From Syntrophales bacterium (GTDB lineage: Bacteria > Desulfobacterota > Syntrophia > Syntrophales > PHBD01): a stretch of DNA of 64,000 bases. The position numbers and the translations under genes are program-made. The notes beneath the pieces are model-generated. The model made no database searches and had not been told where the DNA came from. It saw only the letters and a list, made by a program, of their open reading frames with translations. Of the stretch, positions 15,440 through 34,222 are shown piece by piece. Every line of letters begins with the position of its first letter. Position 1 is the first letter of the stretch. The stretch spans positions 271,356-335,355 of the forward strand of contig DAOSEM010000001.1 in NCBI GenBank assembly GCA_035363115.1, in the 5' to 3' direction.

Positions 15440-16813
15440 GTGGGACCGAACGTGAAGATCATCATCGTCGGGGCCGGCGAGGTCGGCTACCACATCGCGA
15501 AGAAACTGTCGGAAGAGAAGCAGGACGTGGTGCTCATCGACAAGGATCCGGGCAAGATCCGGCGGATCGGCGAGAACCTGGATGTCCAGTCCTACCAGGG
15601 TTCCGGCACCAGCCCGCAGGTTCTCCGGGATTCCGGGATCGCGGATGCGGACATGCTGGTTGCAGCGACGGACAGCGACGAGGTGAACCTGATCTCCTGC
15701 CTCCTGGCCCGGAGCCTCAATCGCCACATGCTCAAGGTCGCCCGGGTGAAAAACGAGGAGTACCTCCGCGAGACGGATCTCTTCCAGAAGGAGCTTCTCG
15801 GAGTCGACCTGATCATCAGCCCCCGGATCATGATGGTGGAGACGATCCTGAACCTCATGAAGATTCCCGGGGCCTCCGAAGCGGTCGATTTCGTCGGCGG
15901 CAAGGTCAAGCTGATCGGATTTTTCGTGACGGACGACCTGCCCTTTTCGGGGCAGAAGCTGAGCGCGCTCCGTGGATTCGAGGGAAGAGCCCTGGTGGCG
16001 GCCATCGTCCGGGGGCACCGGATCCTGATCCCCAGCGGCGGAGACACGATCCAGCCCCACGACCTGGTCTACATGGCGGTCCGGGCGGATCACCTCGACG
16101 ACACCCTCGAACGGCTCAACCTGAAGGGGGGGCCCGTGAAGAACATCTTCATCGTCGGTGGCGGCGAGACGGGGTACGCCGTGGCCCGGGCCCTCGACGG
16201 CCGTGGCCTCAACGTCCGGATCCTGGACCATGACGGGGACCGCTGCAAGAAAATGGCGGCGACCCTGGACAAGGTCCTGGTCATCCGCGGCGACGGGACG
16301 GACCGCGACCTGCTCCGCGAGGAAAACGCCGGTGCCTCGGACCTGTTCATCGCCCTCACGGGCGACGAGGAGAGCAACGTCTTCATCTCCCTCCTCGCCA
16401 AGGGATTGGGCGCCCGCCGCACGATCACCCGGGTGAGCAAGCTCAGCTACATGCCCGTGGTCTCCGCCATGGGGCTCGACACGGTCCTGAATCCGCGGAT
16501 GGCGGCGGTTCGGGCGATTCTCCAGTACATCCGCCGGGGGCGGATCCTGTCGGTGACCCCCCTTCGGGAGGAGCAGGCCGAGGCCATCGAGGCGGAGGCC
16601 CTGGAGACCTCCGAGATCGTCCGCGCCCCCCTCTCTCGGGTCAAGTTCCCCAAGGGGGCGATCCTCGGGGCCATCGTGCGGGGGGAGGAGATCATCATCC
16701 CCCGGGGTGATACCGTCGTCAAACCGAAGGACCGGCTCATCATCTTCGCCATGCAGGACGTCGTCGCCCGGCTGGAAAAGCTCCTGACGGTGAAGCTGGA
16801 GTATTTTGAATGA
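15440..16813 (+). CDS. trkA: Trk potassium uptake system NAD-binding subunit TrkA
   Basis: Two RCK/KTN repeats (KIIIVGAGEVGYHIAKKL and NIFIVGGGETGYAVARAL). The true start may be the GTG at 15452, which has GGGGAGGGG upstream. Confidence 0.92.
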   Translation: MGPNVKIIIVGAGEVGYHIAKKLSEEKQDVVLIDKDPGKIRRIGENLDVQSYQGSGTSPQVLRDSGIADADMLVAATDSDEVNLISCLLARSLNRHMLKVARVKNEEYLRETDLFQKELLGVDLIISPRIMMVETILNLMKIPGASEAVDFVGGKVKLIGFFVTDDLPFSGQKLSALRGFEGRALVAAIVRGHRILIPSGGDTIQPHDLVYMAVRADHLDDTLERLNLKGGPVKNIFIVGGGETGYAVARALDGRGLNVRILDHDGDRCKKMAATLDKVLVIRGDGTDRDLLREENAGASDLFIALTGDEESNVFISLLAKGLGARRTITRVSKLSYMPVVSAMGLDTVLNPRMAAVRAILQYIRRGRILSVTPLREEQAEAIEAEALETSEIVRAPLSRVKFPKGAILGAIVRGEEIIIPRGDTVVKPKDRLIIFAMQDVVARLEKLLTVKLEYFE

Positions 16814-18258
16814 ACGGGCGGCTCATAGCCTACCTGCTTTCCATCCTCGTCCTCGACCTGGGCCTCTTTATGGTCCTGCCCGTCCTGGTCTCCCTCTGGT
16901 ACGGGGAGCCGTGCGCCCGGCAGCTGTTTCTCGCTGCGATCCTCACCGGATGCCTGGGCCTGGCCATGCGGGCCGCCTCGGGCCGGCCCGCCGACCGGTA
17001 CCTGAGCCACCGGGACGGAGTCGCCATTGTGACGGGAGGGTGGGTGCTGGCCGGCCTGGTGGCGACCCTGCCCTATCTCCTGACGGGGACCATCCCGGAT
17101 TTCACGGACGCCTACTTCGAGTGCATCTCCGGTTTCACCACCACGGGCTCCAGCATTTTCAGCAACGTCGAAGTTCTGCCGAGGGGCGTCCTCTTCTGGC
17201 GGAGCCTCACCCAGTGGCTCGGGGGCATGGGGATCATCGTCCTGTCCATCGCGATCCTTCCCTTCCTGGGGATCGGGGGGATGCAGCTCTACAAGGCGGA
17301 GACGCCCAGCCCCGTCGTGGACAAGCTGACGCCGCGGATCTCCGACACGGCCAGGGTCCTGTGGAAAGTATACGTCCTGCTGACGCTGATGCAGATTATC
17401 CTGCTCCTCTTCGGCGGCATGTCCCTCTTCGACGCCGTCTGCCACGCCTTCACGACGATGCCCACGGGCGGCTTTTCCACGAAGAATGCAAGCATCGCCG
17501 CCTATAACAGCGTCTATATCGAGGTCGTGGTGACCGTGTTCATGGTCCTGGCGGGGATGAACTTCGCCCTGCATTACCGGCTGCTCCGGGGAGATTTCCG
17601 TTCTGTCCGGAAAGATCCGGAGATCCGGGTCTATCTCCTCATTTTCGGAGTCCTGACGCTCCTGGTGGCGGTGGACCTTTTCGGCCGGACCTGCCCGTCG
17701 GCGACGCAGGCCCTCCGTTACGCCTCCTTCCAGGTGGCCTCGATCCTGACGACAACCGGCTATACCACGGCGGACTTCGAGCAGTGGCCCGCCTTTTCCC
17801 AGATCGTGCTGCTCCTGTGCATGTTCCTCGGCAGTATGGCCGGATCCACCGGCGGCGGCATCAAGACGCTCCGCCTGCTCCTGCTTGCCAAGCACGCCTA
17901 CCTCGAGATCGTCCGCGTAATCCATCCCCACGCCATGACCATCGTGAAACTCGGGAATGTCCCCGTCTCCCAGTCCGTCCTCCGCAGCGTCTGGGGATTT
18001 TTTATCCTCTTCATGGGCATCTTCGTCCTGGCGACGCTTGTCATGAGCGCCCTGGGAGTCGATTTTCTGACCTCCGTCTCTTCCGTGGCCTCCTGCCTGG
18101 GAAACGTGGGGCCCGGGTTGGGCGCCGTCGGGCCGATGGATAATTTCGGCGGCCTGCCGGCGGCGGGAAAGTGGGTGCTCATCGCCTGCATGCTCCTGGG
18201 GAGGCTGGAGATTTATACGGTATTGGTATTCCTGATGCCCCGCTTCTGGAAGGACTGA
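16810..18258 (+). CDS. trkH: Trk potassium uptake system membrane subunit TrkH
   Basis: ATGA overlap with trkA. Multi-TM protein with TrkH pore-loop motifs (ECISGFTTTGSSIF, TTMPTGGFST, LTTTGYTT, GSTGGGIKT). Confidence 0.92.
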   Translation: MNGRLIAYLLSILVLDLGLFMVLPVLVSLWYGEPCARQLFLAAILTGCLGLAMRAASGRPADRYLSHRDGVAIVTGGWVLAGLVATLPYLLTGTIPDFTDAYFECISGFTTTGSSIFSNVEVLPRGVLFWRSLTQWLGGMGIIVLSIAILPFLGIGGMQLYKAETPSPVVDKLTPRISDTARVLWKVYVLLTLMQIILLLFGGMSLFDAVCHAFTTMPTGGFSTKNASIAAYNSVYIEVVVTVFMVLAGMNFALHYRLLRGDFRSVRKDPEIRVYLLIFGVLTLLVAVDLFGRTCPSATQALRYASFQVASILTTTGYTTADFEQWPAFSQIVLLLCMFLGSMAGSTGGGIKTLRLLLLAKHAYLEIVRVIHPHAMTIVKLGNVPVSQSVLRSVWGFFILFMGIFVLATLVMSALGVDFLTSVSSVASCLGNVGPGLGAVGPMDNFGGLPAAGKWVLIACMLLGRLEIYTVLVFLMPRFWKD

Positions 18259-18411
18259 CGGGCTGCTGAAAAACAGCCGTCTGCGGCGTTTCCCTCCTCC
18301 TTCGCCATTCGACGTACCGAAAAGGGTACGACTCATGGCTCAGGATTTCGGGGGCCTTGCATCCGGGTATTTTTGAACAGCCCGCTACAGGCTTCCGGCA
18401 GGGATGTTCCA

Positions 18412-18447
18412 ATTGCTCCTCTGGGAACCCCCGGTCGCGCCCCCGCG
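18412..18447. repeat. Left arm of the perfect 36-bp inverted repeat bracketing the core module
   Basis: ATTGCTCCTCTGGGAACCCCCGGTCGCGCCCCCGCG is the exact reverse complement of 18740-18775. Confidence 0.95.
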
Positions 18448-18739
18448 GACGTCGGCTGGTAAATGGGTAAATAGGGACACTTCCCCTATATTTTCTCGTA
18501 ATGGTCGGTCCGGGGAGGGGGGCTTCCCGGAGCGCGAATAGCGGCTTTTTCGGGGCACCCTGCCGTCGCAGCGCAGCGCCCGCAAAGTCCTGTGTTTGAA
18601 CACCGTCCGGTGCGAGTTATGACTTTGCAGCGGAGCGAAAAGATGCAAAGGGAGCAGATTTGAAATCTGTCCCATACGCTTCTGAACGCAAGGGATGCCC
18701 CCTCCCTGTTCAAACGGAAGCTTTTTCCCGTCGTAATTT

Positions 18740-18775
18740 CGCGGGGGCGCGACCGGGGGTTCCCAGAGGAGCAAT
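18740..18775. repeat. Right arm of the perfect 36-bp inverted repeat (also the 5' arm of the U hairpin)
   Basis: CGCGGGGGCGCGACCGGGGGTTCCCAGAGGAGCAAT, lying 292 bp from the left arm. It also pairs imperfectly with 18846-18870. Confidence 0.95.
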
Positions 18776-18920
18776 CAGGAAGCGTTTCCAGGGCAGGGAG
18801 ATCCGATTTGCCGGCACCGGAAACAGGAAACGCTTCCGCGACGGCGGGAATCCCCGTGGCAGCCCCCGCGCCCCGGATGAATCTGCCGGCCGTGGGGGCT
18901 GATACAGGAGAGTCGTTGTT

Positions 18921-19889
18921 TCAGGCGTGGTTGCGGAGCTTCAGCTCCTGAGGGTGTGGGTTGAGATAAACCTGGTCTTTCAGGTATGGCTCGTCGAACT
19001 TCCGGACGTAGTGGCGGATCAGGGTGACCGGGACGATCAGCGGGATATCGCCCCGGCGGTAGTCGGTGATGACCTCCTGCAGCTCCTGCCGCTCGTTCGC
19101 GGAAAGCTGTTGCTTGAAATACCCCGCCATGTGCTGGAGGACATTGGCGTTCTTGGCCGGTGTAGCCTTGAGCTGGAGGGCCTCCGCCATGAGCGCCTCG
19201 TACCGGGTATACAGCTCGCCCGCTGGGATTGTTCCGGCCTGGGCCACGAGTTTTCCCATCTCACGGTAGTGCTTTTCGCTGTGGGCCAGGATGAAGAGCT
19301 TGTGGATGGAGTGAAACCTCACCAGGCGCGAGGGCTTTCGGCCCGCCGCGATCATTTCGCGCCAGCGCCGGCAGGCGAAGATCCGCTCGATGAAGTTCTC
19401 CCGGAGGACCGGGTCCTGGAGTCGCCCCTCTTCCTCCACCGGCAGGAGGGGAAAGCGCTCCATGAAGATCCGGGCAAAGATGCCGGAGCCCTTTTTGACT
19501 GCCTGGCCGCCCCCTTCCTGGAAGACGTTCACCCGCTCCATGCCGCTGGAAGGGGACCTGCTCTTGAAGACGAAGCCGCAGAGCCCTTCCTTCTCCAGCT
19601 CGGCCACGCGGCGGCCGGCCCAGGCCTCCATGCGTCCGGTGAGATCCTGCCTGGAGCGCGTGGTGACCAGGCGGGGCCTCGCCGTGTCGCCCTCCAGGTG
19701 CATCGACTCCCGGGGAACCCCCAGCCCGCACTCCACCTCGGGACAGACGGGAACGTACTCCACATGGGCTCCGAGGGTGTCCCGCAGGTAGCGGTCCAGC
19801 TTGTGGCCGCCGTCGTAGCGGACGTTTTCTCCCAGGAGACAGGCGCTGATGCCGAGACGGATCCTGCCCGTAGAATCTTGATTTCCCAT
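18921..19889 (-). CDS. DUF523 (TudS-like) / DUF1722 (YbgA-like) fusion protein
   Basis: N-terminus RLGISACLLGENVRYDGGHK...PVCPEVECGLGVPRE (Cys-rich DUF523). C-terminal half RLVRFHSIHKLFILAHSEKHYREMGKL...LQHMAGYFK is YbgA-like. Family assignment is from memory. Confidence 0.7.
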   Translation of the reverse strand: MGNQDSTGRIRLGISACLLGENVRYDGGHKLDRYLRDTLGAHVEYVPVCPEVECGLGVPRESMHLEGDTARPRLVTTRSRQDLTGRMEAWAGRRVAELEKEGLCGFVFKSRSPSSGMERVNVFQEGGGQAVKKGSGIFARIFMERFPLLPVEEEGRLQDPVLRENFIERIFACRRWREMIAAGRKPSRLVRFHSIHKLFILAHSEKHYREMGKLVAQAGTIPAGELYTRYEALMAEALQLKATPAKNANVLQHMAGYFKQQLSANERQELQEVITDYRRGDIPLIVPVTLIRHYVRKFDEPYLKDQVYLNPHPQELKLRNHA

Positions 19890-21391: not shown

Positions 21392-24300
21392 TCAGGCCGG
21401 TGTGGGGCCTTCGGAGGCCGGCGAGCCGCCGTCTTCCACAGCCCGGCCCTTCCCACGCTTCAGCCTCCGCCCCAGGCGGTCGAAGCAGACGTAGAAGACG
21501 GGAGTCACGTAGAGGGTCAGCATCTGGGAGAACAGGAGGCCCCCGACGACGGCCACGCCCATGGACATCCGGGCGTCGCCCCCGGCGCCGATGCCCAGCG
21601 CGATGGGCAGGGTCCCGAACAGGGCCGCCATCGTGGTCATCATGATGGGGCGGAAGCGGATCACGCAGGCCTTGTGGATGGCGCTCCGGGCGTCCAGCTT
21701 CTCCTCTTCCTCCGCCACGACGGCGAAGTCGACCATCATGATGCCGTTCTTCTTCACCAGGCCCACGAGCATGATGATCCCCACGAAGGCGTAGAGGTCC
21801 AGATTCAGGCGGAACAGGATGAGGGAGACGAGGGCCCCGAAGGCCGCCAGCGGAAGGGCCGAGAGGATGGTGACGGGGTGGATGAAGCTCTCGTAGAGAA
21901 TCCCCAGGACGACATAGATGATGAAAATGGTGACGAAGAGGAGGAAGCCCAGGTTTCCGAAGGATTTCTGGAATTCCTGCGAGGCCCCCTCGAACTGGGC
22001 CGTCACGGTCTGGGGCAGCACCCGGGCGGAGACATCCCGGATCTGGGCCATGGCCTGGTCGATGGAGAAGCCCTGCTTGAGATTGAAGGAGATCGTCGCC
22101 GAAGGAAGCTGTCCCGAGTGGCTGACCGACAGGGGGACCAGCTTTTCCTCGATGCTTGAGAAGGCTGTCAGCGGGACGAGCTTGTCGCGGGAGGACTTGA
22201 TGTAGATCATGGAGAGGGAGGACGGGTCTTCCCGGAACGCCGGATCCAGCTCCAGGATCACGTTGTACTCGTTGCTTGTGCTGTAGATGGTGGAAACCTG
22301 CCGGGACCCGAAGGACGTGTACAGGCCGTCCTGGATCTGGGAGGCCGTGAGGCCCAGGGACGACGCCTTGTCCCGGTCGATGACGATGCGGATGCGGGGA
22401 CTCTGGATGTTGAGGTCCGAGTTCACGTCCACGAGCGACGGAAGGCCTGCCATCTTCTCTTCGAGGGCCAGGGCCGCCCGGTAGAGATCCTCCAGGGAGT
22501 TGCTCTGCAGCGTGTACTGCCAGGCTGCGGTGGTGGACCTTCCTCCGATTGGAATGGGCGGCGGGTTGAAGGGGAAGGCGACCATGCCGGGGATGTCGTT
22601 CAGCTTCGGCCGAAGCTCATTGATGATGTCGGTCACGCTTTTCTTCCGCTCCGAGCCCGGTTTCAGGGTGACGAGGGCGAAACCGGAGTTTGACCCCTCC
22701 TCACTGCCGGCGACGGACAGAAGCCCCCGCAGGTCCGGGTGGGCCTGAATGATCCGGTTTACCTCGCCCTGGTGCTCCACCATGTAGTCAAAGGAGGACC
22801 GGTCGGCGGCCTTCGTGAAGACGAGGAAATAGTCCTGGTCCTGGGAGGGGACGAAGCCCTTGGGAATCCAGACGAACAGGAAGAACGACAGGAGGAGGAT
22901 CACCCCGGTCAGGCCGAGCGTCGCCACCGGATGGTTGAGGGGGACCCAGAGGGTCCGGCCGTAGAAATCGGCGGCCCGCCGGAAGAATTGCTCCGTCCAC
23001 TCCTGGAAGCGCCGCCGCCTGCCGTCGTGATAGCGGTTGAGGAGGCGGCTGCATAGCATCGGGGTCAGGGTCAGGGAGATGAATCCGGAGACGAGAATGG
23101 CGACGCCGATGCTGACGGCGAATTCCCGGAACAGGCGGCCGATGATCCCGCCCATGAAGAGAATCGGGATGAAAACGACCACGAGCGAGATGGTCATCGA
23201 GAGGATCGTGAAGCCGATCTCCCGGGAGCCCGTAAAGGCCGCCTGCATCGCGTCCTCCCCCTCCTCGATCTTCCGGACGATGTTCTCCATCATGACGACG
23301 GCGTCATCGACAACGAATCCGACGGACAGGGTCAGGGCCATGAGGGACAGGTTGTTGAGGCTGAACCCCAGGAGGTCCATGACGGCGAAGGTGGCCACCA
23401 GGGAAAGGGGAACGGCGATACCCGGGATGATCGTGGGCAGGAGGGACCCGAGAAACAGGAAGATCACCGCGACGACGAGGAAGATGGTCAGGAGGAGGGT
23501 GAACTGGACGTCCTCGATGGATTCCCGGATGTAGTCCGCCTGGTTGTACAGGAGCATGAACTCGACGGCCTCGGGGATCATCTTCTGGAGCTGCGGGATC
23601 TTCTCCTTCATGTCCGTGGCGATTCGGACCGTGTTCTGGCCGGGCTGCTTGCTCACGGCCAGGATGATGGCATTGTACTCCGTGTCCTTTGTCAGGAACC
23701 AGAGCTTCGTCTTCTCGTATTCGATGGCATCTTCTGCGCGGCCGATGTCCTCGATCCGGATGGGGATGCCGTTCTTGCTGGACACGACCAGGCGGTTGTA
23801 GGCCCGGGCGTCGGGGAGCTGGCCGGTCGATTCCATCGTATAGGACTGGAAGGATCCGTCAAGGGTCCCGCCGGGCCGGCTGACGTTCCCCTGCTTGATG
23901 GCGTCGCTCACCTCGTTCAGGCCGATGCCCCGGGCGGCCATCTTCCGCGGATCCACCCGGACCCGGACGGCCTTCTTCTGGGCCCCCATGACCTTGACCT
24001 GCGCCACGCCGTCCACGGTGGACAGGGAGCCGCTGACGAAATCCTCCGCCAGGTCCTGGACGTCCGTCATCGGCATGGTTTTGGAGGTCATGACGAAGTA
24101 CATGATGGGCTGGTCGGCCGGATTCGTCTTGGAGTACGACGGGGGCGAGGGCATGTCGTTCGGCAGGAGGTAGCGGGCGGCGGCGATGGCCGTGTTCACG
24201 TCCTGGGCCGCGGCGTCGATGTTGCGCTCCAGGGAGAACTGGAGGGTGATGGTCGTGCTGCCCGTCCGGTTCGTCGAGGACATGGACTGGAGGCCGGCGA

Positions 24301-24520
24301 TCTTCGTGAACTCCTTCTCCAGCGGCGTGGCCACGGTGGATGCCATGACCTCGGGACTGGCTCCGGTGAGGCTGGCATAGACCTGGATGGTCGGGAAATC
24401 GACGTTGGGCAGGTTGTTGACGGGAAGCTGCCGGTAGCTGTGGATCCCGAAGAAGAGGATGCTCACCATGACCAGGATGGTCATGACGGGCCGGCGGATC
24501 CAGATCGCGGAGAGGTTCAT
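21392..24520 (-). CDS. RND efflux permease (AcrB/MdtB-like, HAE-type)
   Basis: 1042 aa. MNLSAIWIRRPVMTILVMVSILFFGIHSYRQLPVNNLPNVDFPTIQV is a typical RND N-terminus. 12-TM, two-large-loop architecture. Confidence 0.93.
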   Translation of the reverse strand: MNLSAIWIRRPVMTILVMVSILFFGIHSYRQLPVNNLPNVDFPTIQVYASLTGASPEVMASTVATPLEKEFTKIAGLQSMSSTNRTGSTTITLQFSLERNIDAAAQDVNTAIAAARYLLPNDMPSPPSYSKTNPADQPIMYFVMTSKTMPMTDVQDLAEDFVSGSLSTVDGVAQVKVMGAQKKAVRVRVDPRKMAARGIGLNEVSDAIKQGNVSRPGGTLDGSFQSYTMESTGQLPDARAYNRLVVSSKNGIPIRIEDIGRAEDAIEYEKTKLWFLTKDTEYNAIILAVSKQPGQNTVRIATDMKEKIPQLQKMIPEAVEFMLLYNQADYIRESIEDVQFTLLLTIFLVVAVIFLFLGSLLPTIIPGIAVPLSLVATFAVMDLLGFSLNNLSLMALTLSVGFVVDDAVVMMENIVRKIEEGEDAMQAAFTGSREIGFTILSMTISLVVVFIPILFMGGIIGRLFREFAVSIGVAILVSGFISLTLTPMLCSRLLNRYHDGRRRRFQEWTEQFFRRAADFYGRTLWVPLNHPVATLGLTGVILLLSFFLFVWIPKGFVPSQDQDYFLVFTKAADRSSFDYMVEHQGEVNRIIQAHPDLRGLLSVAGSEEGSNSGFALVTLKPGSERKKSVTDIINELRPKLNDIPGMVAFPFNPPPIPIGGRSTTAAWQYTLQSNSLEDLYRAALALEEKMAGLPSLVDVNSDLNIQSPRIRIVIDRDKASSLGLTASQIQDGLYTSFGSRQVSTIYSTSNEYNVILELDPAFREDPSSLSMIYIKSSRDKLVPLTAFSSIEEKLVPLSVSHSGQLPSATISFNLKQGFSIDQAMAQIRDVSARVLPQTVTAQFEGASQEFQKSFGNLGFLLFVTIFIIYVVLGILYESFIHPVTILSALPLAAFGALVSLILFRLNLDLYAFVGIIMLVGLVKKNGIMMVDFAVVAEEEEKLDARSAIHKACVIRFRPIMMTTMAALFGTLPIALGIGAGGDARMSMGVAVVGGLLFSQMLTLYVTPVFYVCFDRLGRRLKRGKGRAVEDGGSPASEGPTPA

Positions 24521-24530
24521 CGTCCTGCCT

Positions 24531-25643
24531 TCAGGGCTTTCCGGCTGCCGCCTTCTTGACCTCCACGGGGAAGCCCTCCCGGAGTTTCAGGTGGCCGTCC
24601 GTCACGAGTGTCTCCCCGGGCTCCACCCCCTTCGCCAGGACCGTGTCGGGCCCCGCGACGCGGTCCACCGTCACGGGACGCTGGGTCACCGTCCCATCCT
24701 TCCGGATGACGAATACGTAATGGCCCTCCTGGCTTCTCTGGACGGCCGGCGACGGCACCACCAGGGCGCTCTTCTGGATCGTGAGTTCCAGGGCCGCGCT
24801 GGCGAACTGCCCGGGCCACAGGAAGCCGTCCGGATTGGGGAATTCCGCCTTGAGGCGGATCATACCGGAGTCGGGATCGACGGCATTGTCGACAAAGACG
24901 AGGACCCCCTCCCGGGCGTCCTTTTCCTTTCCGGGCAGCGTGGCCGTCACCTTCAGGGACGACTGCCGCATCTGGCGGCGGACGTCGGCCAGCCGGTTCT
25001 CCGGGATGGAGAAGCGGACGTAGACGGGGCGGATCTGGTTCACCGTGGTGAGGGTCCCGGAGTTGGCCGAGACGACGGCCCCGGGATTGACGCCGTACGT
25101 TCCCGTCTTGCCCGCGATGGGGGCTGTGATGGAGCAGTACTGGAGGTTGAGCCGCGCTTTCTCGGCGGCGGCGCGGTTGTCCCGGACGGTCTGAGACTGG
25201 GTGGTCTCGGTTGTCCGGTACCGGTCGTATTCGGACCGGGAGACGGCTCCCTTCTCCAGGAGGAAGGCATAGCGCCGGGCCTCCGCCCGGTCGTGGTCGA
25301 ACTGGGCCTCCTCCTTGGCCAGCCGGGCCTCCGCCTGGCGAAGCTCCTCGCGAAACGGGGCGGGGTCCAGGCTGAACAGGAGATCCCCCTTCCGGACCTC
25401 CTGGCCCTCCCGGAAATGAACGGCCGCGATCTTCCCGGTCACCTGGGGAACCACCGTCACGGTGCGGTACGCCTCCACGAGGCCCACGGCCTGGATCTGG
25501 ACGGGCATGTCCTTCCGGACCGCCTCGCCGGCTGTGATGGGCACCGCCGCCGACGCATGCTGCGCTTCCTTCTTTCCGCATCCGGCTGCCGAGAAACCGA
25601 CAGCCAGCAGCAATACCATCCCGAGGAGAACGCCTCTTTTCAT
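24531..25643 (-). CDS. RND efflux periplasmic adaptor (MFP) lipoprotein
   Basis: Signal peptide with lipobox (FSAAGC). HlyD_D23-like motifs (YCSITAPIAGKTG, FLWPGQFA). Confidence 0.9.
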   Translation of the reverse strand: MKRGVLLGMVLLLAVGFSAAGCGKKEAQHASAAVPITAGEAVRKDMPVQIQAVGLVEAYRTVTVVPQVTGKIAAVHFREGQEVRKGDLLFSLDPAPFREELRQAEARLAKEEAQFDHDRAEARRYAFLLEKGAVSRSEYDRYRTTETTQSQTVRDNRAAAEKARLNLQYCSITAPIAGKTGTYGVNPGAVVSANSGTLTTVNQIRPVYVRFSIPENRLADVRRQMRQSSLKVTATLPGKEKDAREGVLVFVDNAVDPDSGMIRLKAEFPNPDGFLWPGQFASAALELTIQKSALVVPSPAVQRSQEGHYVFVIRKDGTVTQRPVTVDRVAGPDTVLAKGVEPGETLVTDGHLKLREGFPVEVKKAAAGKP

Positions 25644-26956
25644 ATCTTCTTCCCCGTGGCCTTTTCGATGGCGGACTGGGCCTTCCGGTAGTCGTAGAGG
25701 GCCTGGATATGTTTCAGTTTCGCATCGCTGAAGCCCACCGTGGCGTCTGTGACCTCCACCGGCGTGCTCAGCCCCGCCGAGTACTTGAGCGTTACGATTT
25801 CCAGGTTTTCCTCCGCCTGCCGGACGGCCAGGGCTGCGTCAGAGATGCTTCTTTCCGCCTTCAGCAGGTTCAGGCAGGCCTTCTGGATCTCCGTGCGGAC
25901 ATCGAGCCGCTTGGAATCCAGCTGGGCCTGGAGCTTGTTCCGCTTCGCCAGGGCCTCCCGGATGCGGTTTTGCGTGGCCATGCCCTCGAAGAAATTGACC
26001 GACACGGTCACACCGGCATTCCAGCCCCGGGAGAGGGGCCTTTCGCTCCCGTCATACGAGTAGCCGGCCTTGCCGCTGAGGCTGGGGAGATACTCCTTCC
26101 GGGCCAGGTCGATTTCCCGCTCCGCCGCTTCGAGCTGTGCCGCCAGGGATTTCAGGTCCGACCGGGACTCCAGGGCCTGGGCCGTCGCTTCGTCAAGGAC
26201 GACCGGGTAGCGCTGGAACGCCAGGTTGTCCTCGATCCGGTAGGACGGGGGAGAGGGGATGCCCATGACCTGGTTCATGCTCACCCGGGCCAGCATCTCT
26301 TCGTTTTCGGCGGAGGTCAGCTCCAGCCGGGCGTTGCTCAGGTCCACTTCCGCCTTGGTCACGTCGTAGCGGGACTTGGTCCCGGCCTCGAAGAAGAGCT
26401 TTGCCTGCCGGAGATGCGCCTCGAACTTGCCGGCCTTCTCCGTCTGCACCTCCCGGTTGCGGGAGGTCCGGAGGAGCTCGTAATAGGCCTCTCGGACGGA
26501 GTGGACCAGGGCCAGCCGCTGGTTTTCCAGGTCGTGCAGGGAGGCGTCCCGGGACAGATCCCTCATCCGGATGGTCGCTTCCCGTTTTCCGAAATCGTAG
26601 ATGTTCTGGGTGAGGGTGGCGGAGGCGCTGTAGTAGCTGTACGATTCCAGGGGAATCAGGGAGTAGTTGTCGGCGGCGTTCCGGTCGTCGGGGGTGTAGC
26701 GCGTGTAGCCGCCGGTGACGTCGATCTTGGGGAAGTAGTCCTTCCTCGCCTGGGCCGCCTGGGCCTCCCGGGCCTCCGCTTCATACGCATAGGCCGCCAG
26801 GGCCGGATGCCGCTTCAGGGCAATCTCGATGCAGCGGGAAAGGGAGAGGGTCTCGCCTTCCCGGATGGCCGGCACCTCCGCCCGGGCCGATACGGTCGTG
26901 AAAAGAAGGAAAAGGGCGATCGGGAACAGGGTGAGCCGGAGATTTCTGAGACCCAT
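25640..26956 (-). CDS. TolC-like outer membrane efflux protein
   Basis: ORF trimmed to MGLRNLRLTLFPIALFLLFTTVSARA (signal peptide). Two OEP repeats (LSLSRCIEIALKRHPALAA..., LDEATAQALESRSDLKSLAAQLEAAE). 4-nt overlap with the MFP start. Confidence 0.88.
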   Translation of the reverse strand: MGLRNLRLTLFPIALFLLFTTVSARAEVPAIREGETLSLSRCIEIALKRHPALAAYAYEAEAREAQAAQARKDYFPKIDVTGGYTRYTPDDRNAADNYSLIPLESYSYYSASATLTQNIYDFGKREATIRMRDLSRDASLHDLENQRLALVHSVREAYYELLRTSRNREVQTEKAGKFEAHLRQAKLFFEAGTKSRYDVTKAEVDLSNARLELTSAENEEMLARVSMNQVMGIPSPPSYRIEDNLAFQRYPVVLDEATAQALESRSDLKSLAAQLEAAEREIDLARKEYLPSLSGKAGYSYDGSERPLSRGWNAGVTVSVNFFEGMATQNRIREALAKRNKLQAQLDSKRLDVRTEIQKACLNLLKAERSISDAALAVRQAEENLEIVTLKYSAGLSTPVEVTDATVGFSDAKLKHIQALYDYRKAQSAIEKATGKKI

Positions 26957-27097
26957 GGATCGCTCCGTGTCTTTTCCTTCCGCCGCAGGGAGTGGCCGGA
27001 GGCGGCGGATATGCGCCACCATACACAAGTTTCGTCCCGTGATCAAGGAGACCCATGGAAGGGTGAGCGGATTCCCGGTCTCTCTCCCGCCGGAGGT

Positions 27098-28231: not shown

Positions 28232-29143
28232 TTACTTTTTCCCCTTTTTCCCTGCCGGCCGGAGCCTCTCCCAGGCCAGCACGATGGAGCTGGCGATGAA
28301 AATGGAGGAATAGGTTCCGATCACGATGCCGACGAGGAGGGTAAAGGCAAAGTCGTGGATCACCGCTCCCCCCAGGAAGAAGAGCGCCACCAGGACGATG
28401 AAGACCGTCAGGGCGGTCAGGATGGTCCGGCTCAGGGTTTCGTTCACGCTGGTGTTGATCAGCGTGGCCAGGTCCTGCTTGATGTTTTTCCGGACGTTTT
28501 CCCGGATCCGGTCGAAGACGACGATGGTGTCGTTGATGGAGTAGCCGATGATCGTAAGCAGGGCCGCCACGATGGTGAGGTCGAACTCCTTGCCCAGGAG
28601 CGACAGTGCCCCCACGGTGATGATCGTGTCGTGCACCAGGGCCAGGATGCCGCCCACGCCGTAACGGAACTCGAACCGGAAGGCGATGTAGATGAGCATG
28701 CCGACCCAGGAAAAGAAAATCGCCAGGAGCGCCTTCTTGGTCAGGTCTTTCCCGACCTTGGGTCCCACGTACTCGACGCGGCGGATGTCGAAGGTCCCCG
28801 CTCCGAGGGCGGACGTCAGGGCCTGCTGGATCTTGTCGCTTGTTTCTTTTGTGTTTTCAGCCGAGTCGCCGATGCGCACCACCACCTCGTTCTCACCGTA
28901 CTGCTGGATGGTGCTCCCCTCCAGGCCGATGGGCTTGAAGGCCGCCCGGATCTTCTCCGGGGCCGGCTCGTGCTGGAACTTGATCTGAATGAGAGTCCCC
29001 CCGGCAAAGTCGATGCCGTAGTTGAGACCTCCGTGCCAGACGATGGAGGCGATGCTGATGACGATCAGTGCCAGGGATATGCCGAAGGCGATCTTCATCT
29101 TGCCGACGAAATCGAAGTTGGTACCCGCCTTGATCAGTTCCAT
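28232..29143 (-). CDS. secF: Protein translocase subunit SecF
   Basis: NFDFVGKMKIAFGISLALIVISIASIV...GIDFAGGT and a C-terminal six-TM SecDF domain (SINDTIVVFDRIREN). Confidence 0.93.
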   Translation of the reverse strand: MELIKAGTNFDFVGKMKIAFGISLALIVISIASIVWHGGLNYGIDFAGGTLIQIKFQHEPAPEKIRAAFKPIGLEGSTIQQYGENEVVVRIGDSAENTKETSDKIQQALTSALGAGTFDIRRVEYVGPKVGKDLTKKALLAIFFSWVGMLIYIAFRFEFRYGVGGILALVHDTIITVGALSLLGKEFDLTIVAALLTIIGYSINDTIVVFDRIRENVRKNIKQDLATLINTSVNETLSRTILTALTVFIVLVALFFLGGAVIHDFAFTLLVGIVIGTYSSIFIASSIVLAWERLRPAGKKGKK

Positions 29144-29195
29144 GCGGTGCTCCTCAGTTTGGGAAATGGCGTCCGGGGTTCTTTCCGCCCCGGTT

Positions 29196-30794
29196 TCATA
29201 CGCTGATCCGGGAGATCTTCCGGTTCAGGACGAAGTGGTCGAAGACGATCCGCGTCACGAAGACGGCGGTGAACATGCTGGCGATGATGCCGATGGTGAG
29301 CGTCACGGCAAAGCCCTTCACGGGACCGGTCCCGAAGCCGAACAGGAACAGGGCGGCGATGAGGGTCGTCACGTTCGAGTCGAGAATTGTCAGGAACGCC
29401 TTGCCGTAGCCCGCCTCGACGGCCATCTTGGGGGTCTTCCCGTTCCTCACCTCCTCGCGGATCCGCTCGAAGATGAGAACGTTGGCGTCCACGGCCATGC
29501 CGATGACGAGAACGATGCCGGCGATGCCCGGCAGGGTCAGCGTCGCCTTAAAGGCCGAGAGGGTCCCCATGAGGAGGATGATGTTGAGAATGACGGCGCT
29601 GTTGGCGATGACGCCGGCCCATTTGTAGTAGAAGCCCATGAACAGGACCACCAGGAGGCCGCCGATGGCGACGGACCAGAGCCCCTTGTTGATGGAGTCC
29701 TGGCCCAGGGACGGTCCCACGGTCCGCTCCTCCAGGATCACGACCGGCGCCGGCAGGGCACCCGCCCGAAGAACGATGGCCAGGTCCTTGGCCTCATCCA
29801 TGGTGAAGGTCCCCGTGATCTGGGCCTGGCCCCCGGAGATCTTCTCCTGGATGACCGGCGCCGAGTGGACAACGCCGTCCAGCACGATGGCGAGTCTCTT
29901 CTTGACGTTTTCCCCGGTGATCCGCTCGAATTCGTTGGCCCCCTGGCTGTTGAACTTGATGGCCACGTAAGGCTCGCCGAAGCGGTCGCTGATCTTGACC
30001 TGGGCGTTCTCCAGCGCCCCGCCCGTCAGGAGGGTCTTGTTCCGCACGAGATAGGGCACGTCGGTCCGGCGGCCCGATTCCGGCTCCACCTTGTAGCCGC
30101 GGAGGACCGCGCTTCCCTCGGGGACGTTGCCACGGAGGGCGTCGTCCAGGGAATGCTCCTCGTCGAGGAGCTTAAACTCCAGAAGCGCCGTCTTGCCGAT
30201 CAGGTTCTTCGCCCGGGCGGGGTCCTGGATCCCCGGAAGCTGGACGACGATCCGGTCGTCCCCCTGGGGCATGATTTCCGGTTCGGAGATGCCGAACTGG
30301 TCCACCCGGTTCCGGATGGTCTCCAGGCTCTGCTCGACGACAAACGTCTTCATCTCCGCGGCCCGCTTGTCCTTGATCTTCAGGGTCACCTGGTCGCGCC
30401 CTTCCCGGGTTTCCGATTTGGCCACCTCCAGATCGGGGTAGCTGTCCTTCAGGATCTTGTCGAAGGCCCCCCGGGAGGCCGGATCCGGCAGCTCCAGGCT
30501 GATGCCCGCCTTCGTCCGCTCGATGTTGCGGAAGCGGACGCGCTTGTCCATCAGGGTTTCCTTCAAGTCGTTGGACGTGCGTTCCATCGTGCTTTCAAGG
30601 GCTTTCGCGGTGTCCACCTCCAGGATGAGGTGCATTCCCCCCTGCAGGTCCAGCCCCAGGTGGATCCGGTCCGAGGGAAGATTTTTCTTCCAGAACTCGG
30701 GCAGGTCCGGAATCAGGGTCGGCGTCAGGTAAAACAGCGCCCCCAGGCAGATGACAACGGTAATGGCGACACGGATGCGGATGCTCTTGATCAT
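29196..30794 (-). CDS. secD: Protein translocase subunit SecD
   Basis: LGLDLQGGMHLILEVD, a large periplasmic domain, and a C-terminal TM bundle (GIVLVIGMAVDANVLIFERIREE). Confidence 0.93.
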   Translation of the reverse strand: MIKSIRIRVAITVVICLGALFYLTPTLIPDLPEFWKKNLPSDRIHLGLDLQGGMHLILEVDTAKALESTMERTSNDLKETLMDKRVRFRNIERTKAGISLELPDPASRGAFDKILKDSYPDLEVAKSETREGRDQVTLKIKDKRAAEMKTFVVEQSLETIRNRVDQFGISEPEIMPQGDDRIVVQLPGIQDPARAKNLIGKTALLEFKLLDEEHSLDDALRGNVPEGSAVLRGYKVEPESGRRTDVPYLVRNKTLLTGGALENAQVKISDRFGEPYVAIKFNSQGANEFERITGENVKKRLAIVLDGVVHSAPVIQEKISGGQAQITGTFTMDEAKDLAIVLRAGALPAPVVILEERTVGPSLGQDSINKGLWSVAIGGLLVVLFMGFYYKWAGVIANSAVILNIILLMGTLSAFKATLTLPGIAGIVLVIGMAVDANVLIFERIREEVRNGKTPKMAVEAGYGKAFLTILDSNVTTLIAALFLFGFGTGPVKGFAVTLTIGIIASMFTAVFVTRIVFDHFVLNRKISRISV

Positions 30795-30807
30795 GGCGAA
30801 CCCCTGG

Positions 30808-31137
30808 TTATTCCTTCGATTCCTTCCCGGCCTTCTGGAGGACGGTGCTGATGAAGCTCTTGCCCACCTTGATTCTCACCTTGTCGGCGATCTCCAGGGT
30901 CACGACGTTGTCCGCGACGGCGGTTATTTTCCCCTGGATCCCCCCCGAGGTCATGACCAGATCCCCGTGGGTCAGGCTGGCCAGCATGTCCTTGTGCTCT
31001 TTCTGCTGTTTCATCTGGGGCCGGATGAGCAGGAAGTAGAAGATGGCGAACAGGACGCCCATCATGACGATGAAGCTCCAGTCCCCTCCCGCGCCCCCGC
31101 CTCCGGGCATCCCCATGGCATATGCGGTTCCGATCAC
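30808..31137 (-). CDS. yajC: Preprotein translocase subunit YajC
   Basis: LLIRPQMKQQKEHKDMLASLTHGDLVMTSGGIQGKI matches the YajC signature (RPQ.K..KEH...L..GD.V.T.GG..G.I). Confidence 0.9.
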   Translation of the reverse strand: MIGTAYAMGMPGGGGAGGDWSFIVMMGVLFAIFYFLLIRPQMKQQKEHKDMLASLTHGDLVMTSGGIQGKITAVADNVVTLEIADKVRIKVGKSFISTVLQKAGKESKE

Positions 31138-31155
31138 GAAAATATCCTCCCTGAT

Positions 31156-32883
<1,728 letters not shown>

Positions 32884-32891
32884 GCGTATAT

Positions 32892-33932
32892 TCAGAGGAT
32901 CAGCATCGCATCCCCATAACTGTAAAACCGGAATCCGTCCTCCACGGCCCGGCGGTAGGCCGCCTTCATCCGTTCCGTCCCGGCGAAGGCGCAGACCAGG
33001 ATGAAGAGGGACGACCGGGGGAGGTGGAAGTTCGTCACCATGGCCCCGGTGCAGCGGAACCGGTGCCCCGGGCGGATGAACAGGTCCGTGTATCCCTCCC
33101 CGGCGGCCACCCGTCCGTTCTCGTCGGCCAGCGTCTCCAGTACCCGGGTGGAGGTCGTCCCGACGGCCACCACGCGCCGGGCATCGTTGATCAGGCGGGC
33201 CGTTTCCGAAGTCAGTTCGTAATGTTCCGCGTCCAGGCCGGCGTTTTCCAGCGGACCTTCCGGCAGCGGCTGGAAGGTCCCGTATCCCACGTGCAGGGTC
33301 AGTCGCGCCACGGGAATATTCTTTTTCTCCAGCTCCGCAAAGACCGCCGGGGTGAAGTGAAGGCCTGCCGTGGGGGCCGCCACGGAGCCGGGGGGACGGG
33401 CGTATACGGTCTGGTAGCGCTCCCGGTCATGCGCCGTTCCGGGATCGCCGGGATCCCGGCGGATGTAGGGCGGCAGGGGTGGCCGTCCGATCCTGTCCAG
33501 ATAGGCGTTGAAAGGCTCCCCGGCGTGAAACCGGACCCGCCACTTCTTGTCGGAAATGCGCTCGACGATCTCCGCGGCGGCCCCCTCCGGGAGGAGAATT
33601 CGGTCGCCCGGGCGCAGACGTCGCGCCGGCCGGAGGAGGGCCTCCCAGGTTCGTCCCTCCGGATCCGCTCCCGCCGGAAGCGGGAGAAGCAGGATCTCCA
33701 CGGCCCCCCCGGTTTCCCGCCGCCCGTTCAGCCGTGCCGGGATGACCCGCGAGTCGTTGACGACCAGGACGTCTCCTGGCTTAAGAAATTCCGGAAGGTC
33801 GGCGAAGACGCGCTCCTCCAGCCCGTCCCGATCCCGCCGGACCACCAGCAGGCGCGACCGGTCGCGCTCCGCCGCCGGCTCCTGGGCGATTCGCTCGGGG
33901 GGCAGGAAATAGTCGAAGACCGACGGATCCAT
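32892..33932 (-). CDS. queA: S-adenosylmethionine:tRNA ribosyltransferase-isomerase
   Basis: ORF 32892..34184 trimmed to MDPSVFDYFLPPERIAQEPAAERDRSRLLVV. Also VVNDSRVIPARL, HVGYGTFQP and NFHLPRSSL. Confidence 0.93.
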   Translation of the reverse strand: MDPSVFDYFLPPERIAQEPAAERDRSRLLVVRRDRDGLEERVFADLPEFLKPGDVLVVNDSRVIPARLNGRRETGGAVEILLLPLPAGADPEGRTWEALLRPARRLRPGDRILLPEGAAAEIVERISDKKWRVRFHAGEPFNAYLDRIGRPPLPPYIRRDPGDPGTAHDRERYQTVYARPPGSVAAPTAGLHFTPAVFAELEKKNIPVARLTLHVGYGTFQPLPEGPLENAGLDAEHYELTSETARLINDARRVVAVGTTSTRVLETLADENGRVAAGEGYTDLFIRPGHRFRCTGAMVTNFHLPRSSLFILVCAFAGTERMKAAYRRAVEDGFRFYSYGDAMLIL

Positions 33933-33934
33933 CC

Positions 33935-34138
33935 TTATTGCCTGCCGAGATAGACCAGGAGGAGCCCCATGACAATGGCCCCCAGGCCGAGGAACCGGAG
34001 CGTGCGTTCGGGGATTTCCAGGAGCTTCACCAGGTACTGCTTGATCTGCGCCGGAAAGGCGAAATAGGGCAGGCCCTCGACGATGAAGACCATCCCGAGG
34101 ACGCAGAGAAAGAATTCCATTCCGCTTGTCTGTTCCAT
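33935..34138 (-). CDS. DUF2065 (YjeT-like) small membrane protein
   Basis: 67 aa with two hydrophobic helices (FFLCVLGMVFIVEGLPYFAFP ... LGLGAIVMGLLLVYLG). The stop lies 2 nt before the queA start. Confidence 0.6.
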   Translation of the reverse strand: MEQTSGMEFFLCVLGMVFIVEGLPYFAFPAQIKQYLVKLLEIPERTLRFLGLGAIVMGLLLVYLGRQ

Positions 34139-34222
34139 CCGTCTTTATGCCTCGATGGGGCTGCCCGGCACGGGTCCCTGGCATGTCCCCCGCGTCTTCA
34201 TTTCATCTGCATCCGGACCCCG

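What the first reader, a model, noticed from the sequence alone, without database searches (positions are those of the whole stretch)
18512..18706. Core module folds as a closed, conserved structure with strand-specific G-U pairs: candidate structured ncRNA
In both copies the core begins with GGGGAGGGGGGCTTCCC. It ends with a complementary arm that differs in sequence: copy 1 has GGGATGCCCCCTCCC (18692-18706) and copy 2 has GGGAAGCCTCTCTCAC (32723-32738). In copy 2 two positions become G-U pairs that are tolerated only if the plus strand is the RNA; they would be C-A on the other strand. An internal helix GCAAAGTC/GACTTTGC (18582-18589 with 18621-18628) is kept and extended to 10 bp in copy 2 (32630-32639 with 32667-32676). 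A distal hairpin is replaced by a different hairpin: GGGAGCAGATTTGAAATCTGTCCC in copy 1 versus CGATGCAGGGTCGAAAAATCG in copy 2. Long blocks are nearly invariant. Conserved helices plus a variable stem is the pattern of a functional RNA rather than of neutral repeat decay.
Basis: partly seen in the sequence, partly recalled or inferred. Interest (0 to 1): 0.6.

Follow-up and report, generated by a model that had tools for sequence, protein, structure and literature searches.

The report
Conserved hairpin in a mosaic intergenic repeat
The 195-base "core" is a real, selectively maintained long hairpin, but it is one module of a roughly 500-base palindromic repeat element with dozens of copies per genome in a few Syntrophaceae, mostly between convergent genes, and not a stand-alone RNA gene.

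Summary
Both cores fold far better than shuffles (z -3.5 and -6.7).

The core is not unique. Pattern scans found about 50 further copies, 86-100% identical, in three Syntrophaceae/Deltaproteobacteria MAGs and on long metagenome contigs, at about one copy per 100 kb.

The complete element is 444-636 bp. It runs: terminal hairpin, hairpin H1, optional inserts, core, tail, inverted terminal hairpin. Modules are nested, duplicated, inverted and swapped between orthologous loci.

Both window spacers are lineage-specific insertions. Relatives have a 68-nt trkH/DUF1722 spacer and overlapping queA/tgt genes. Elements are strongly enriched between convergent genes (20/33 versus 17/283).

The core hairpin is constrained. 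Stems vary six times less than loops, one pair shows a GC/AU switch with G-U intermediates, and orthologous cores diverge less than synonymous sites.

Formal covariation is weak. No promoter or Rfam match was found. The ORFs show no coding signal.

The strand argument fails. H1 folds better on the opposite strand, and copy 2 lies antisense inside the queA-tgt operon.

Verdict: a new lineage-specific member of the MITE/BIME/ERIC-like class. Whether it acts as RNA remains open.

The parts
18259..18400 (+). Module A. A ~140-nt palindromic repeat unit that starts right after the trkH stop codon. Its ends are GGGCTGCTGAAAAA and TTTTTGAACAGCCC.
   Evidence: Inverted copy at 32765-32883. Found inside the H1 loop in L017, L021, L024, L033, L037, L038, L043 and L048. 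Three tandem copies in the ortholog L026. One plus a partial copy in L054.
18412..18447 (+). B arm, the 3' arm of hairpin H1, present here without its C' partner. It is the left arm of a 36-nt perfect inverted repeat that brackets the core.
   Evidence: (I7).
18450..18506 (+). Optional insert 'xa', carrying a terminator-like hairpin ATAGGGACACTTCCCCTAT followed by a T-run (18471-18489).
   Evidence: The same insert occurs in L010, L028/L049 and L037, and as a complete face-to-face hairpin pair in L051.
18512..18706 (+). Core copy 1 (the finding). A variant long hairpin in which part of the 3' arm is replaced by a local hairpin (18650-18673) resembling the element's terminal hairpin. It has four substitutions near the apex.
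   Evidence: variant shared with L021.
18738..18880 (-). A complete H1 hairpin module (C' arm, loop, B arm) in inverted orientation.
   Evidence: (I3, I4, I7).
32350..32492 (+). A complete H1 hairpin module upstream of core copy 2.
32493..32555 (+). Optional insert 'xb' between H1 and the core.
   Evidence: also in L011/L032; a similar insert in L026.
32560..32738 (+). Core copy 2. A near-canonical single long imperfect hairpin. It lacks the tail and terminal hairpins, and it lies antisense to the flanking queA and tgt genes.
   Evidence: The ortholog L006 keeps it.
32765..32883 (-). Module A in inverted orientation, abutting the queA stop codon.
   Evidence: I2, I5; shared with L051 and L006.

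Best explanation
The core is the most conserved module of a non-coding, multi-copy, lineage-restricted mosaic palindromic repeat element, a MITE/BIME/ERIC-like intergenic repeat.

A complete element is 444-636 bp. Its order is:
- a terminal hairpin (loop motif CGGATTTGAAATCCG) followed by a T-rich run;
- hairpin H1, made of two ~35-45-nt inverted GC-rich arms (C' and B) around a variable centre;
- an optional insert;
- the ~180-nt core hairpin;
- a ~40-nt tail and an A-rich run;
- the terminal hairpin again, inverted.

Shown:
- Copies occur at about one per 100 kb.
- They have been inserted into intergenic spacers, overwhelmingly those between convergent genes.
- Between strains they are reshuffled at the module level: nested insertion of module A into H1, tandem duplication, deletion, and flipping of the core between inverted H1 copies.
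- The core's pairing is conserved. Its sequence changes more slowly than synonymous sites, while the rest of the spacer drifts or rearranges.

Inferred:
- The element spreads and is homogenised by insertion plus recombination or gene conversion between copies.
- It survives where its inward-pointing terminator hairpins do no harm. Where it sits between co-directional genes, the terminal hairpins tend to be missing, as in window copy 2.
- The core hairpin is kept because the folded single strand is what matters. That strand could be DNA during propagation or conversion, or read-through RNA as an RNase-sensitive or terminating hairpin.

The core is not an independently transcribed RNA gene.
For: Copy number and narrow host range:
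- 12 loci in 3 MAGs and 38 loci on long metagenome contigs, with up to 5 per ~0.5 Mb.
- 54 core copies in all, 86-100% identical.
- No match in viral contigs, plasmids or E. coli genomes.
- Many MAG copies lie at contig ends.

Mosaic architecture:
- Terminal hairpins are perfect inverted repeats in L011 (29/29).
- The terminal hairpin motif is tied to the element: 65 occurrences near cores against about 4 plausible ones elsewhere.

Insertion:
- The trkH/DUF1722 spacer is 68 nt in L055, 183 nt in L054, 662 nt in the window and 882 nt in L026.
- queA and tgt overlap by 4 nt in L053.
- The L051 spacer has module A, xa and a C arm but no core.

Rearrangement at orthologous loci:
- Window versus L026.
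- L018 versus L050, where the core is flipped between inverted H1 copies.

Genomic context:
- Convergent spacers account for 20/33 element-bearing spacers against 17/283 in the background (odds ratio 24, p = 2e-13).
- Orientation in tandem contexts is 6:6.
- Terminal hairpins are present at 32/40 ends in convergent contexts against 10/24 in tandem contexts.

Constraint on structure:
- 99.3% of cells are paired.
- Minor-allele load is 0.44 per paired column against 2.6 per unpaired column.
- There is a compensatory GC/AU pair.
- H1 has 6 pairs with compensatory changes.
- Orthologous cores are 0.90-0.96 identical against 0.72-0.92 for third codon positions.

No sign of an independent gene:
- No promoter and no Rfam family.
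- No coding signal.
Against: - No target-site duplications were seen at the outer borders of the terminal hairpins.
- No autonomous partner or transposase was identified, so transposition itself is not shown.
- A purely selfish, decaying element would not keep orthologous cores more similar than synonymous sites. This needs host-level selection, rapid turnover or gene conversion.
- The genome-specific state of the apex pair points to gene conversion. All HGW-19 copies are A-U, while three of the four orthologous sets compared have G-C in the other genomes.
- The plus strand of the core is more stable in 37/40 copies. This fits a strand-specific function.
- Transcription was not measured.
Confidence: 0.72

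Rival explanations
1. Domesticated cis-acting element. The repeat serves the host as a transcription insulator or terminator cassette between convergent genes. When read through, the long core hairpin acts at the RNA level, either as an RNase III-type target or as a 3'-end protecting hairpin, limiting antisense read-through.
For: - Strong enrichment between convergent genes.
- Terminator-like hairpins at both ends point into the element.
- The terminal hairpins are rarer in co-directional contexts.
- The core is conserved beyond synonymous sites at orthologous loci.
- The whole element folds with z = -10.5.
Against: - The same location bias is expected from purifying selection against insertions elsewhere.
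- Close relatives manage with 68-nt spacers.
- Orientation is random with respect to co-directional neighbours (6:6).
- The core and H1 prefer opposite strands.
- No expression data are available.
Confidence: 0.2
2. Stand-alone structured ncRNA gene. The plus strand of the core is transcribed as a discrete ~180-195-nt RNA, present in many gene copies, whose conserved internal loops bind a protein or another nucleic acid.
For: - Conserved loops as well as stems.
- GC/AU covariation with G-U intermediates on the plus strand.
- The plus strand is more stable in 37/40 copies.
- A plus-strand terminator-like hairpin lies downstream of the tail.
- The core evolves more slowly than synonymous sites.
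Against: - No promoter-like site in the window spacer or in the canonical element.
- In canonical copies the H1 B arm abuts the core with only about 10 nt between them.
- No Rfam match.
- Only 2 covarying pairs, not above shuffles.
- G-U versus A-C is not significant.
- Distribution is narrow, with insertion polymorphism.
- Copy 2 is antisense inside an operon-like gene string.
Confidence: 0.1
3. Invertible DNA segment. The 292-bp segment between the 36-nt perfect inverted repeats (18412-18447 and 18740-18775) flips, changing what is read from the neighbouring genes.
For: - Perfect 36/36 inverted repeats bracket copy 1 (I7).
- The core has opposite orientations between inverted H1 copies at the orthologous loci L018 and L050.
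- In the window, the core is inverted relative to the outer A and C modules in copy 2 compared with copy 1.
Against: - No promoter lies inside the segment.
- Both flanking genes end at the spacer rather than start there.
- Most copies have only one H1.
- The ortholog L026 lacks the right-hand B arm.
- The flips seen are between genomes and are explained by ordinary recombination between inverted repeats.
Confidence: 0.04
4. Protein-coding. The minus-strand ORFs 18385-18774 and 32319-32774, or a 25-codon minus-strand ORF behind a GGGAGG motif in the tail of canonical copies, encode peptides.
For: - One minus-strand frame is open across the core in 38/40 copies.
- An SD-like GGGAGG followed by ATG occurs in the reverse complement of the tail in many canonical copies.
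Against: - No Pfam match.
- Variants are spread 15/15/10 over the codon positions in every frame.
- The copies differ by indels that are not multiples of three (195 versus 179 nt; 1-2-nt indels in the terminal stem).
- The window copies lack the tail.
- My codon-usage gene caller predicts no gene in either spacer.
Confidence: 0.01

Closest known systems
BIMEs / REP doublets (REPINs) of Escherichia coli and Pseudomonas (from my own knowledge)
   Same: - Extragenic GC-rich imperfect palindromes that occur as inverted pairs forming long hairpins. H1, made of the C' and B arms, has this layout.
- They are combined with other short motifs into mosaics.
- They are present in many copies, are placed mainly after the 3' ends of genes, and are prone to recombination.
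   Different: - No sequence similarity to anything in 5,426 E. coli genomes.
- The units are much longer: a 180-nt core and 444-636-bp elements.
- Terminator-like hairpins lie at both ends.
- No RAYT-type partner gene could be looked for.
ERIC / IRU elements of enterobacteria (from my own knowledge)
   Same: - A long imperfect palindrome (about 127 bp in ERIC).
- It is intergenic and strikingly conserved in sequence between copies and between species.
- Its positions differ between genomes, and it is thought to act as an RNA hairpin when co-transcribed.
   Different: - Unrelated in sequence.
- Here the palindrome is embedded in a larger modular element.
- Transcription is unknown, and orientation relative to the neighbouring genes is random.
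BOX elements of Streptococcus pneumoniae and Correia/NEMIS elements of Neisseria (from my own knowledge)
   Same: - Modular (boxA-boxB-boxC) or TIR-bounded small non-coding repeats.
- They fold stably, lie between genes and can carry transcription signals.
- Correia transcripts form hairpins that RNase III cuts.
   Different: - Different phylum and different sequence.
- No target-site duplication was seen here, whereas Correia elements have a TA duplication.
- No promoter was detected here.

Membership tests
MITE (miniature inverted-repeat transposable element) | Small, non-coding and multi-copy | tested here: met
   444-636 bp. About 54 copies. No coding signal.
MITE (miniature inverted-repeat transposable element) | Terminal inverted repeats | tested here: met
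   The terminal hairpins are inverted repeats of each other (29/29 in L011). The motif is tied to the element. They vary much more between copies than the core does.
MITE (miniature inverted-repeat transposable element) | Target-site duplication flanking each copy | tested here: not met
   No direct repeats at the outer borders of the terminal hairpins in 19 complete copies. The borders were defined only by hairpin extent, so a short duplication could be missed.
MITE (miniature inverted-repeat transposable element) | Presence/absence polymorphism at orthologous sites | tested here: met
   queA-tgt; trkH-DUF1722.
MITE (miniature inverted-repeat transposable element) | An autonomous element with the same ends that encodes a transposase | not testable with these tools
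None was seen in the 437 kb fetched.
REP/BIME/REPIN | Inverted pairs of short GC-rich palindromic units in mosaic clusters, located outside genes | tested here: met
   H1 consists of the C' and B arms with compensatory inner-stem variants. Mosaics are shown. All copies are intergenic.
REP/BIME/REPIN | Sequence relationship to the described REP/BIME families | tested here: not met
   No blastn match in the E. coli genomes.
REP/BIME/REPIN | A cognate RAYT (Y1 transposase) gene flanked by the repeats | not testable with these tools
   It could not be searched for in the source genomes. There is no replication-strand bias of the core (22 versus 24).
Any Rfam family | A match at the gathering score | tested here: not met
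   Only chance hits of generic hairpin models were found.
Independent structured ncRNA gene | Own promoter and a discrete transcript | tested here: inconclusive
   No sigma-70-like site was found. Other promoter types and actual transcription cannot be tested here.
Independent structured ncRNA gene | Statistically supported covariation | tested here: inconclusive
   The core has 2 double-change pairs, and 91/500 shuffles do as well. Variation is too low, at 90% mean column identity. The loop-versus-stem contrast is clear.
Invertible promoter switch (inverton) | Inverted repeats around a promoter, both orientations present in one population, and an invertase | tested here: inconclusive
   Inverted repeats are present. 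No promoter is present. Both orientations were seen only between genomes. An invertase was not looked for.

The most novel reading that the evidence does not exclude
The core is a functional single-stranded nucleic-acid module in its own right. It would be an RNA, or a DNA hairpin, with sequence-specific internal loops that a so-far unidentified protein recognises. That protein could be, for example, a recombinase or nuclease that moves or converts the element, or a host factor. The surrounding mosaic would be only its vehicle. This would explain three things: the core alone is held above the synonymous-site level of conservation in several genomes; its loops are as conserved as its stems; and it stays attached to the B arm of H1.
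Probability: 0.2. Interest if true: 0.6.

Novelty: new member of a known kind. Interest (0 to 1): 0.35.

Why it matters
This defines a previously undescribed repeat family. It has no Rfam entry, and the two literature searches I ran found nothing. The hosts are syntrophic Deltaproteobacteria/Syntrophales that are known mostly from MAGs.

Practical consequences:
- The repeat breaks short-read assemblies, since many copies sit at contig ends.
- It inflates intergenic spacers, for example 68 nt growing to 662-882 nt.
- It splits a conserved operon (queA-tgt).
- It creates long spurious ORFs.

Scientific interest: it is a clean case in which one module of a mosaic repeat is kept under tighter constraint than synonymous sites, while its neighbouring modules shuffle freely. 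That makes it a good place to ask whether such hairpins serve the host or only themselves.

Tried and rejected
- **Rfam.** Gathering thresholds and permissive E-values, on the window and on a canonical copy, gave nothing real.
- **Protein coding.**
  - No Pfam match.
  - The codon-position and synonymous/non-synonymous tests are flat in all six frames.
  - The 25-codon minus-strand ORF behind GGGAGG is broken by 1-2-nt indels in several copies.
- **Promoters.** No sigma-70-like site. By eye, a sigma-54-like TGCCACG..TTCC in the C' arm lacks the invariant GG and GC.
- **Replication-strand bias, as expected for IS200/IS605 or RAYT-type ssDNA mobilisation.** None: 22 versus 24 against local GC skew, which is a noisy measure.
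- **Target-site duplications.** None seen.
- **Co-evolution of the two sides of the terminal stem.** Cognate and non-cognate pairings are equally stable (p = 0.55).
- **G-U versus A-C asymmetry as a strand indicator.** 10 versus 4 pairs, not significant, and contradicted by H1.
- **Terminal hairpin as a generic terminator of these genomes.** Rejected. It is almost confined to the element.
- **Phage or plasmid origin.** No hits.
- **Relationship to E. coli REP/ERIC.** No hits.
- **Literature.** Two searches found nothing.
- **IS110 bridge RNA or TnpB/IscB guide RNA.** Considered from memory only, and not pursued. The core is a single rod with 2-5-nt internal loops, and no recombinase gene is adjacent.

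Full report
**1. The observation**

The window is a 64% GC bacterial chromosome segment. Copy 1 (18512-18706) lies in the 662-nt spacer between the convergent genes trkH (16810-18258, +) and a DUF523/DUF1722 gene (18921-19889, -). Copy 2 (32560-32738) lies in the 581-nt spacer between queA (32892-34184, -) and tgt (31156-32310, -). These two genes belong to a queA-tgt-yajC-secD-secF string.

The copies are 93% identical over their first 137 nt.

| Sequence folded | MFE (kcal/mol) | z-score |
|---|---|---|
| Copy 1, plus strand | -87.9 | -3.5 |
| Copy 2, plus strand (one long imperfect hairpin) | -96.7 | -6.65 |
| Copy 1, minus strand | -87.4 | -4.1 |
| Copy 2, minus strand | -83.1 | -4.8 |

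The 'different distal hairpin' in copy 2 is a mis-parse. That stretch is the 3' arm of the long stem, both in the MFE fold and in the family consensus.

**2. The surroundings are mosaic**

Around the cores the two spacers share further repeats in different orders and orientations.
- Copy 1 region: A, B, xa, core, then an inverted complete H1.
- Copy 2 region: H1 (C', loop, B), xb, core, then inverted A.

A 36-nt perfect inverted repeat (18412-18447 and 18740-18775) brackets copy 1.

**3. A family of about fifty copies**

- An exact 22-mer from the core found 12 loci in three MAGs: Deltaproteobacteria bacterium HGW-19 and two uncultured Syntrophaceae. Many of these lie at contig ends.
- A second pattern found 38 loci on long metagenome contigs, with up to five per ~0.5 Mb.
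- BLAST over all fetched DNA gives 54 cores, 86-100% identical to the L011 copy.
- Viral contigs, plasmids and E. coli genomes have none.
- Rfam has no match at gathering or permissive thresholds.
- Two literature searches found nothing.

**4. Anatomy of the complete element**

The element is 444-636 bp and consists of these parts in order:
- a terminal hairpin (stem variable, loop region CGGATTTGAAATCCG) followed by a T-rich run;
- H1, two conserved ~35-45-nt inverted arms (C' and B) around a variable centre;
- an optional insert, xa or xb;
- the core;
- a ~40-nt tail and an A-rich run;
- the terminal hairpin, inverted (29/29 complementary in L011).

The terminal hairpins score as intrinsic terminators pointing into the element. 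They are almost confined to it: 65 occurrences near cores against about 4 plausible ones elsewhere, and none elsewhere in the window.

Module A (window 18259-18400) sits inside the H1 loop in eight loci. It forms tandem arrays in L026 and L054. Cores are tandemly duplicated in L043 and L045. The whole element folds with the two terminal hairpin regions as a closing helix (z = -10.5).

**5. These are insertions**

- *trkH/DUF1722 spacer.* With synteny conserved, this convergent spacer is 68 nt in L055 (80% protein identity) and 183 nt in L054 (83%), where it holds one module A plus a partial A. It is 662 nt in the window and 882 nt in the close ortholog L026.
- *queA/tgt.* The two genes overlap by 4 nt in a Syntrophus relative (L053). 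In a closer complete genome (L051, Tgt 87% identical) the 324-nt spacer holds module A, an xa hairpin pair and a C arm, but no core.
- *Module-level differences at orthologous loci.* Window and L026 differ in module order. L034 and L037 also differ. In L018 versus L050 the core has opposite orientations between inverted H1 copies.

**6. Where the elements sit**

I called genes with a codon-usage caller trained on the Pfam-verified genes of the window. Of the element-bearing spacers with both neighbours called, 20 are convergent, 12 are co-directional (6 in each orientation of the core) and 1 is divergent. Against 17 convergent spacers among 283 other spacers in the same DNA, this gives an odds ratio of 24 (p = 2e-13).

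Terminal hairpins are present at 32/40 ends in convergent contexts but only at 10/24 ends in co-directional contexts. Window copy 2, inside the operon-like string, lacks them.

Core orientation shows no relation to local GC skew (22 versus 24).

**7. Is the core structure under selection?**

In the alignment of 40 complete canonical cores (A2), RNAalifold gives one hairpin of 57 pairs. 99.3% of cells are paired.

Evidence for constraint:
- Paired columns carry 0.44 minor alleles per column and unpaired columns carry 2.6.
- Every polymorphism seen in three or more copies lies at an unpaired column, with two exceptions: the covarying pair 97/107 (GC 27, AU 12, GU 1) and column 153, where A-to-G gives a U-G pair.
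- Further G-U intermediates of pair 97/107 occur in L002, L004, L012 and L037.
- H1, which is more divergent, has six pairs with compensatory changes. An example is GAAAACGTTTCC/GGAAACGTTTTC against GGAGACTTTTCC/GGAAAAGTCTCC.
- At seven orthologous pairs the core is 0.90-0.96 identical. Third codon positions of the flanking genes are 0.72-0.92 identical, and the rest of the spacer is 0.75-0.89.

Limits of the evidence:
- Only two core pairs show double changes, which is no more than shuffles give (91/500). Formal covariation in the core is therefore weak, because there is too little variation.
- The apex pair is A-U (one copy G-U) in all HGW-19 copies. Three of the four orthologous sets compared have G-C in the other genomes; the fourth (L008, L033, L028) is A-U in all. 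This points to gene conversion or concerted evolution as part of the explanation.

**8. Which strand, and is it RNA?**

The plus strand of the core is more stable in 37/40 copies, by 4.6 kcal/mol on average. Several results weaken this as evidence for a plus-strand RNA:
- One-sided changes give G-U at 10 pairs and A-C at 4 pairs (p = 0.18).
- The asymmetry comes largely from C/U variation opposite the 5' G-run of the terminal stem. The two sides of that stem do not co-evolve (p = 0.55).
- H1, always in the same orientation as the core, is more stable on the minus strand in 30/34 copies.
- Copy 2 is antisense to its flanking genes.
- No sigma-70-like promoter was found in the window spacer or in the canonical element. 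In canonical copies the B arm abuts the core with about 10 nt between them.

The data show a constrained hairpin. They do not show a plus-strand transcript.

**9. Coding?**

- The two minus-strand ORFs have no Pfam match.
- The frame they use is open in most copies, as expected for conserved GC-rich DNA.
- Variants fall 15/15/10 on the codon positions, and synonymous to non-synonymous changes are 12:28, no different from the other frames.
- The copies differ by indels that are not multiples of three.

I reject protein coding.

**10. Interpretation**

The best-supported reading is a lineage-specific mosaic palindromic repeat of the MITE/BIME/ERIC/BOX kind. The core is its most constrained module.

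- *Shown:* multiplicity, mosaic structure, insertion polymorphism, location bias, conservation of the hairpin, and no coding.
- *Inferred:* spread and homogenisation by insertion and recombination or gene conversion; tolerance, or use, as a terminator-flanked filler between convergent genes; and a role for the folded single strand.
- *Not shown:* the mobilising enzyme, any target-site duplication (none seen), and any transcript.

The element is not a sequence member of any described family. It works like these families but belongs to none of them.

**11. Verdict**

The ncRNA interpretation is partly supported: the structure and the constraint hold, but a discrete strand-specific RNA gene does not.

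- Novelty: a new member of a known kind.
- Interest: 0.35.
- Most novel reading still open: the core is a protein-recognised RNA or ssDNA module carried by the mosaic (probability about 0.2).

Noticed in passing
window 28232-34184; L053:2961-5119; L051:2636-5155: The conserved gene string queA-tgt-yajC-secD-secF is interrupted in the window by a 581-nt repeat-filled spacer between queA and tgt. In a Syntrophus relative the two genes overlap by 4 nt. In a closer genome the spacer is 324 nt and holds different repeat modules.
   Followed up: yes
window 21392-27046; L054:737-2112: An RND efflux operon (outer-membrane factor, HlyD-type adaptor and AcrB-type pump) lies between the signal peptidase gene and the methyltransferase gene in the window. 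It is absent from the syntenic locus L054, where those two genes are neighbours. This looks like a roughly 5.6-kb gain or loss.
   Followed up: no
window 18259-18400 and 32765-32883; L026:1130-1510 (three tandem copies); L054:3955-4135: Module A is a separate ~140-nt palindromic repeat with ends GGGCTGCTGAAAAA and TTTTTGAACAGCCC. It occurs alone, in tandem arrays, and nested in the loop of H1. Its first ~40 nt resemble the short ancestral-looking trkH/DUF1722 spacer of L055.
   Followed up: partly
window 18450-18506; L051:3805-3905; L049:4100-4200: Module xa is a pair of face-to-face terminator-like hairpins: TAGGGACACTTCCCCTA followed by a T-run, and its inverted copy about 45 nt away. In L051 it sits between queA and tgt, where it would be expected to stop read-through into tgt.
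   Followed up: partly
window 18412-18447 / 18740-18775; L018:1657-2243 versus L050:9244-9878: A 36-nt perfect inverted repeat brackets copy 1. At another locus the core has opposite orientations between inverted H1 copies in two related genomes. So the segment between inverted H1 arms flips on an evolutionary timescale.
   Followed up: partly
L043:2015-2529; L045:479-1018: There are two cores in tandem within one spacer, with start-to-start distances of 307 and 347 nt.
   Followed up: no
Core alignment A2, columns 97/107; loci L001, L003, L004, L007, L008, L009 versus L016, L022, L023, L025, L039: The apex base pair is A-U (one copy G-U) in every copy from MAG HGW-19. In three of the four orthologous sets compared, the copies in the other genomes have G-C. 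The state largely follows the genome rather than the locus, which suggests gene conversion among copies.
   Followed up: partly
H1 copies (alignment A3), for example window 32350-32492: H1 folds about 5 kcal/mol better on the strand opposite to the one on which the adjacent core folds better (30/34 against 37/40 copies). No single-transcript model explains this.
   Followed up: partly
window 1-64000: Cumulative GC skew rises almost monotonically across the window, from 0 to 1.27. The window therefore seems to lie on one replication arm, with the plus strand as the leading strand. Most genes between 18.9 and 36 kb are nevertheless on the minus strand.
   Followed up: no
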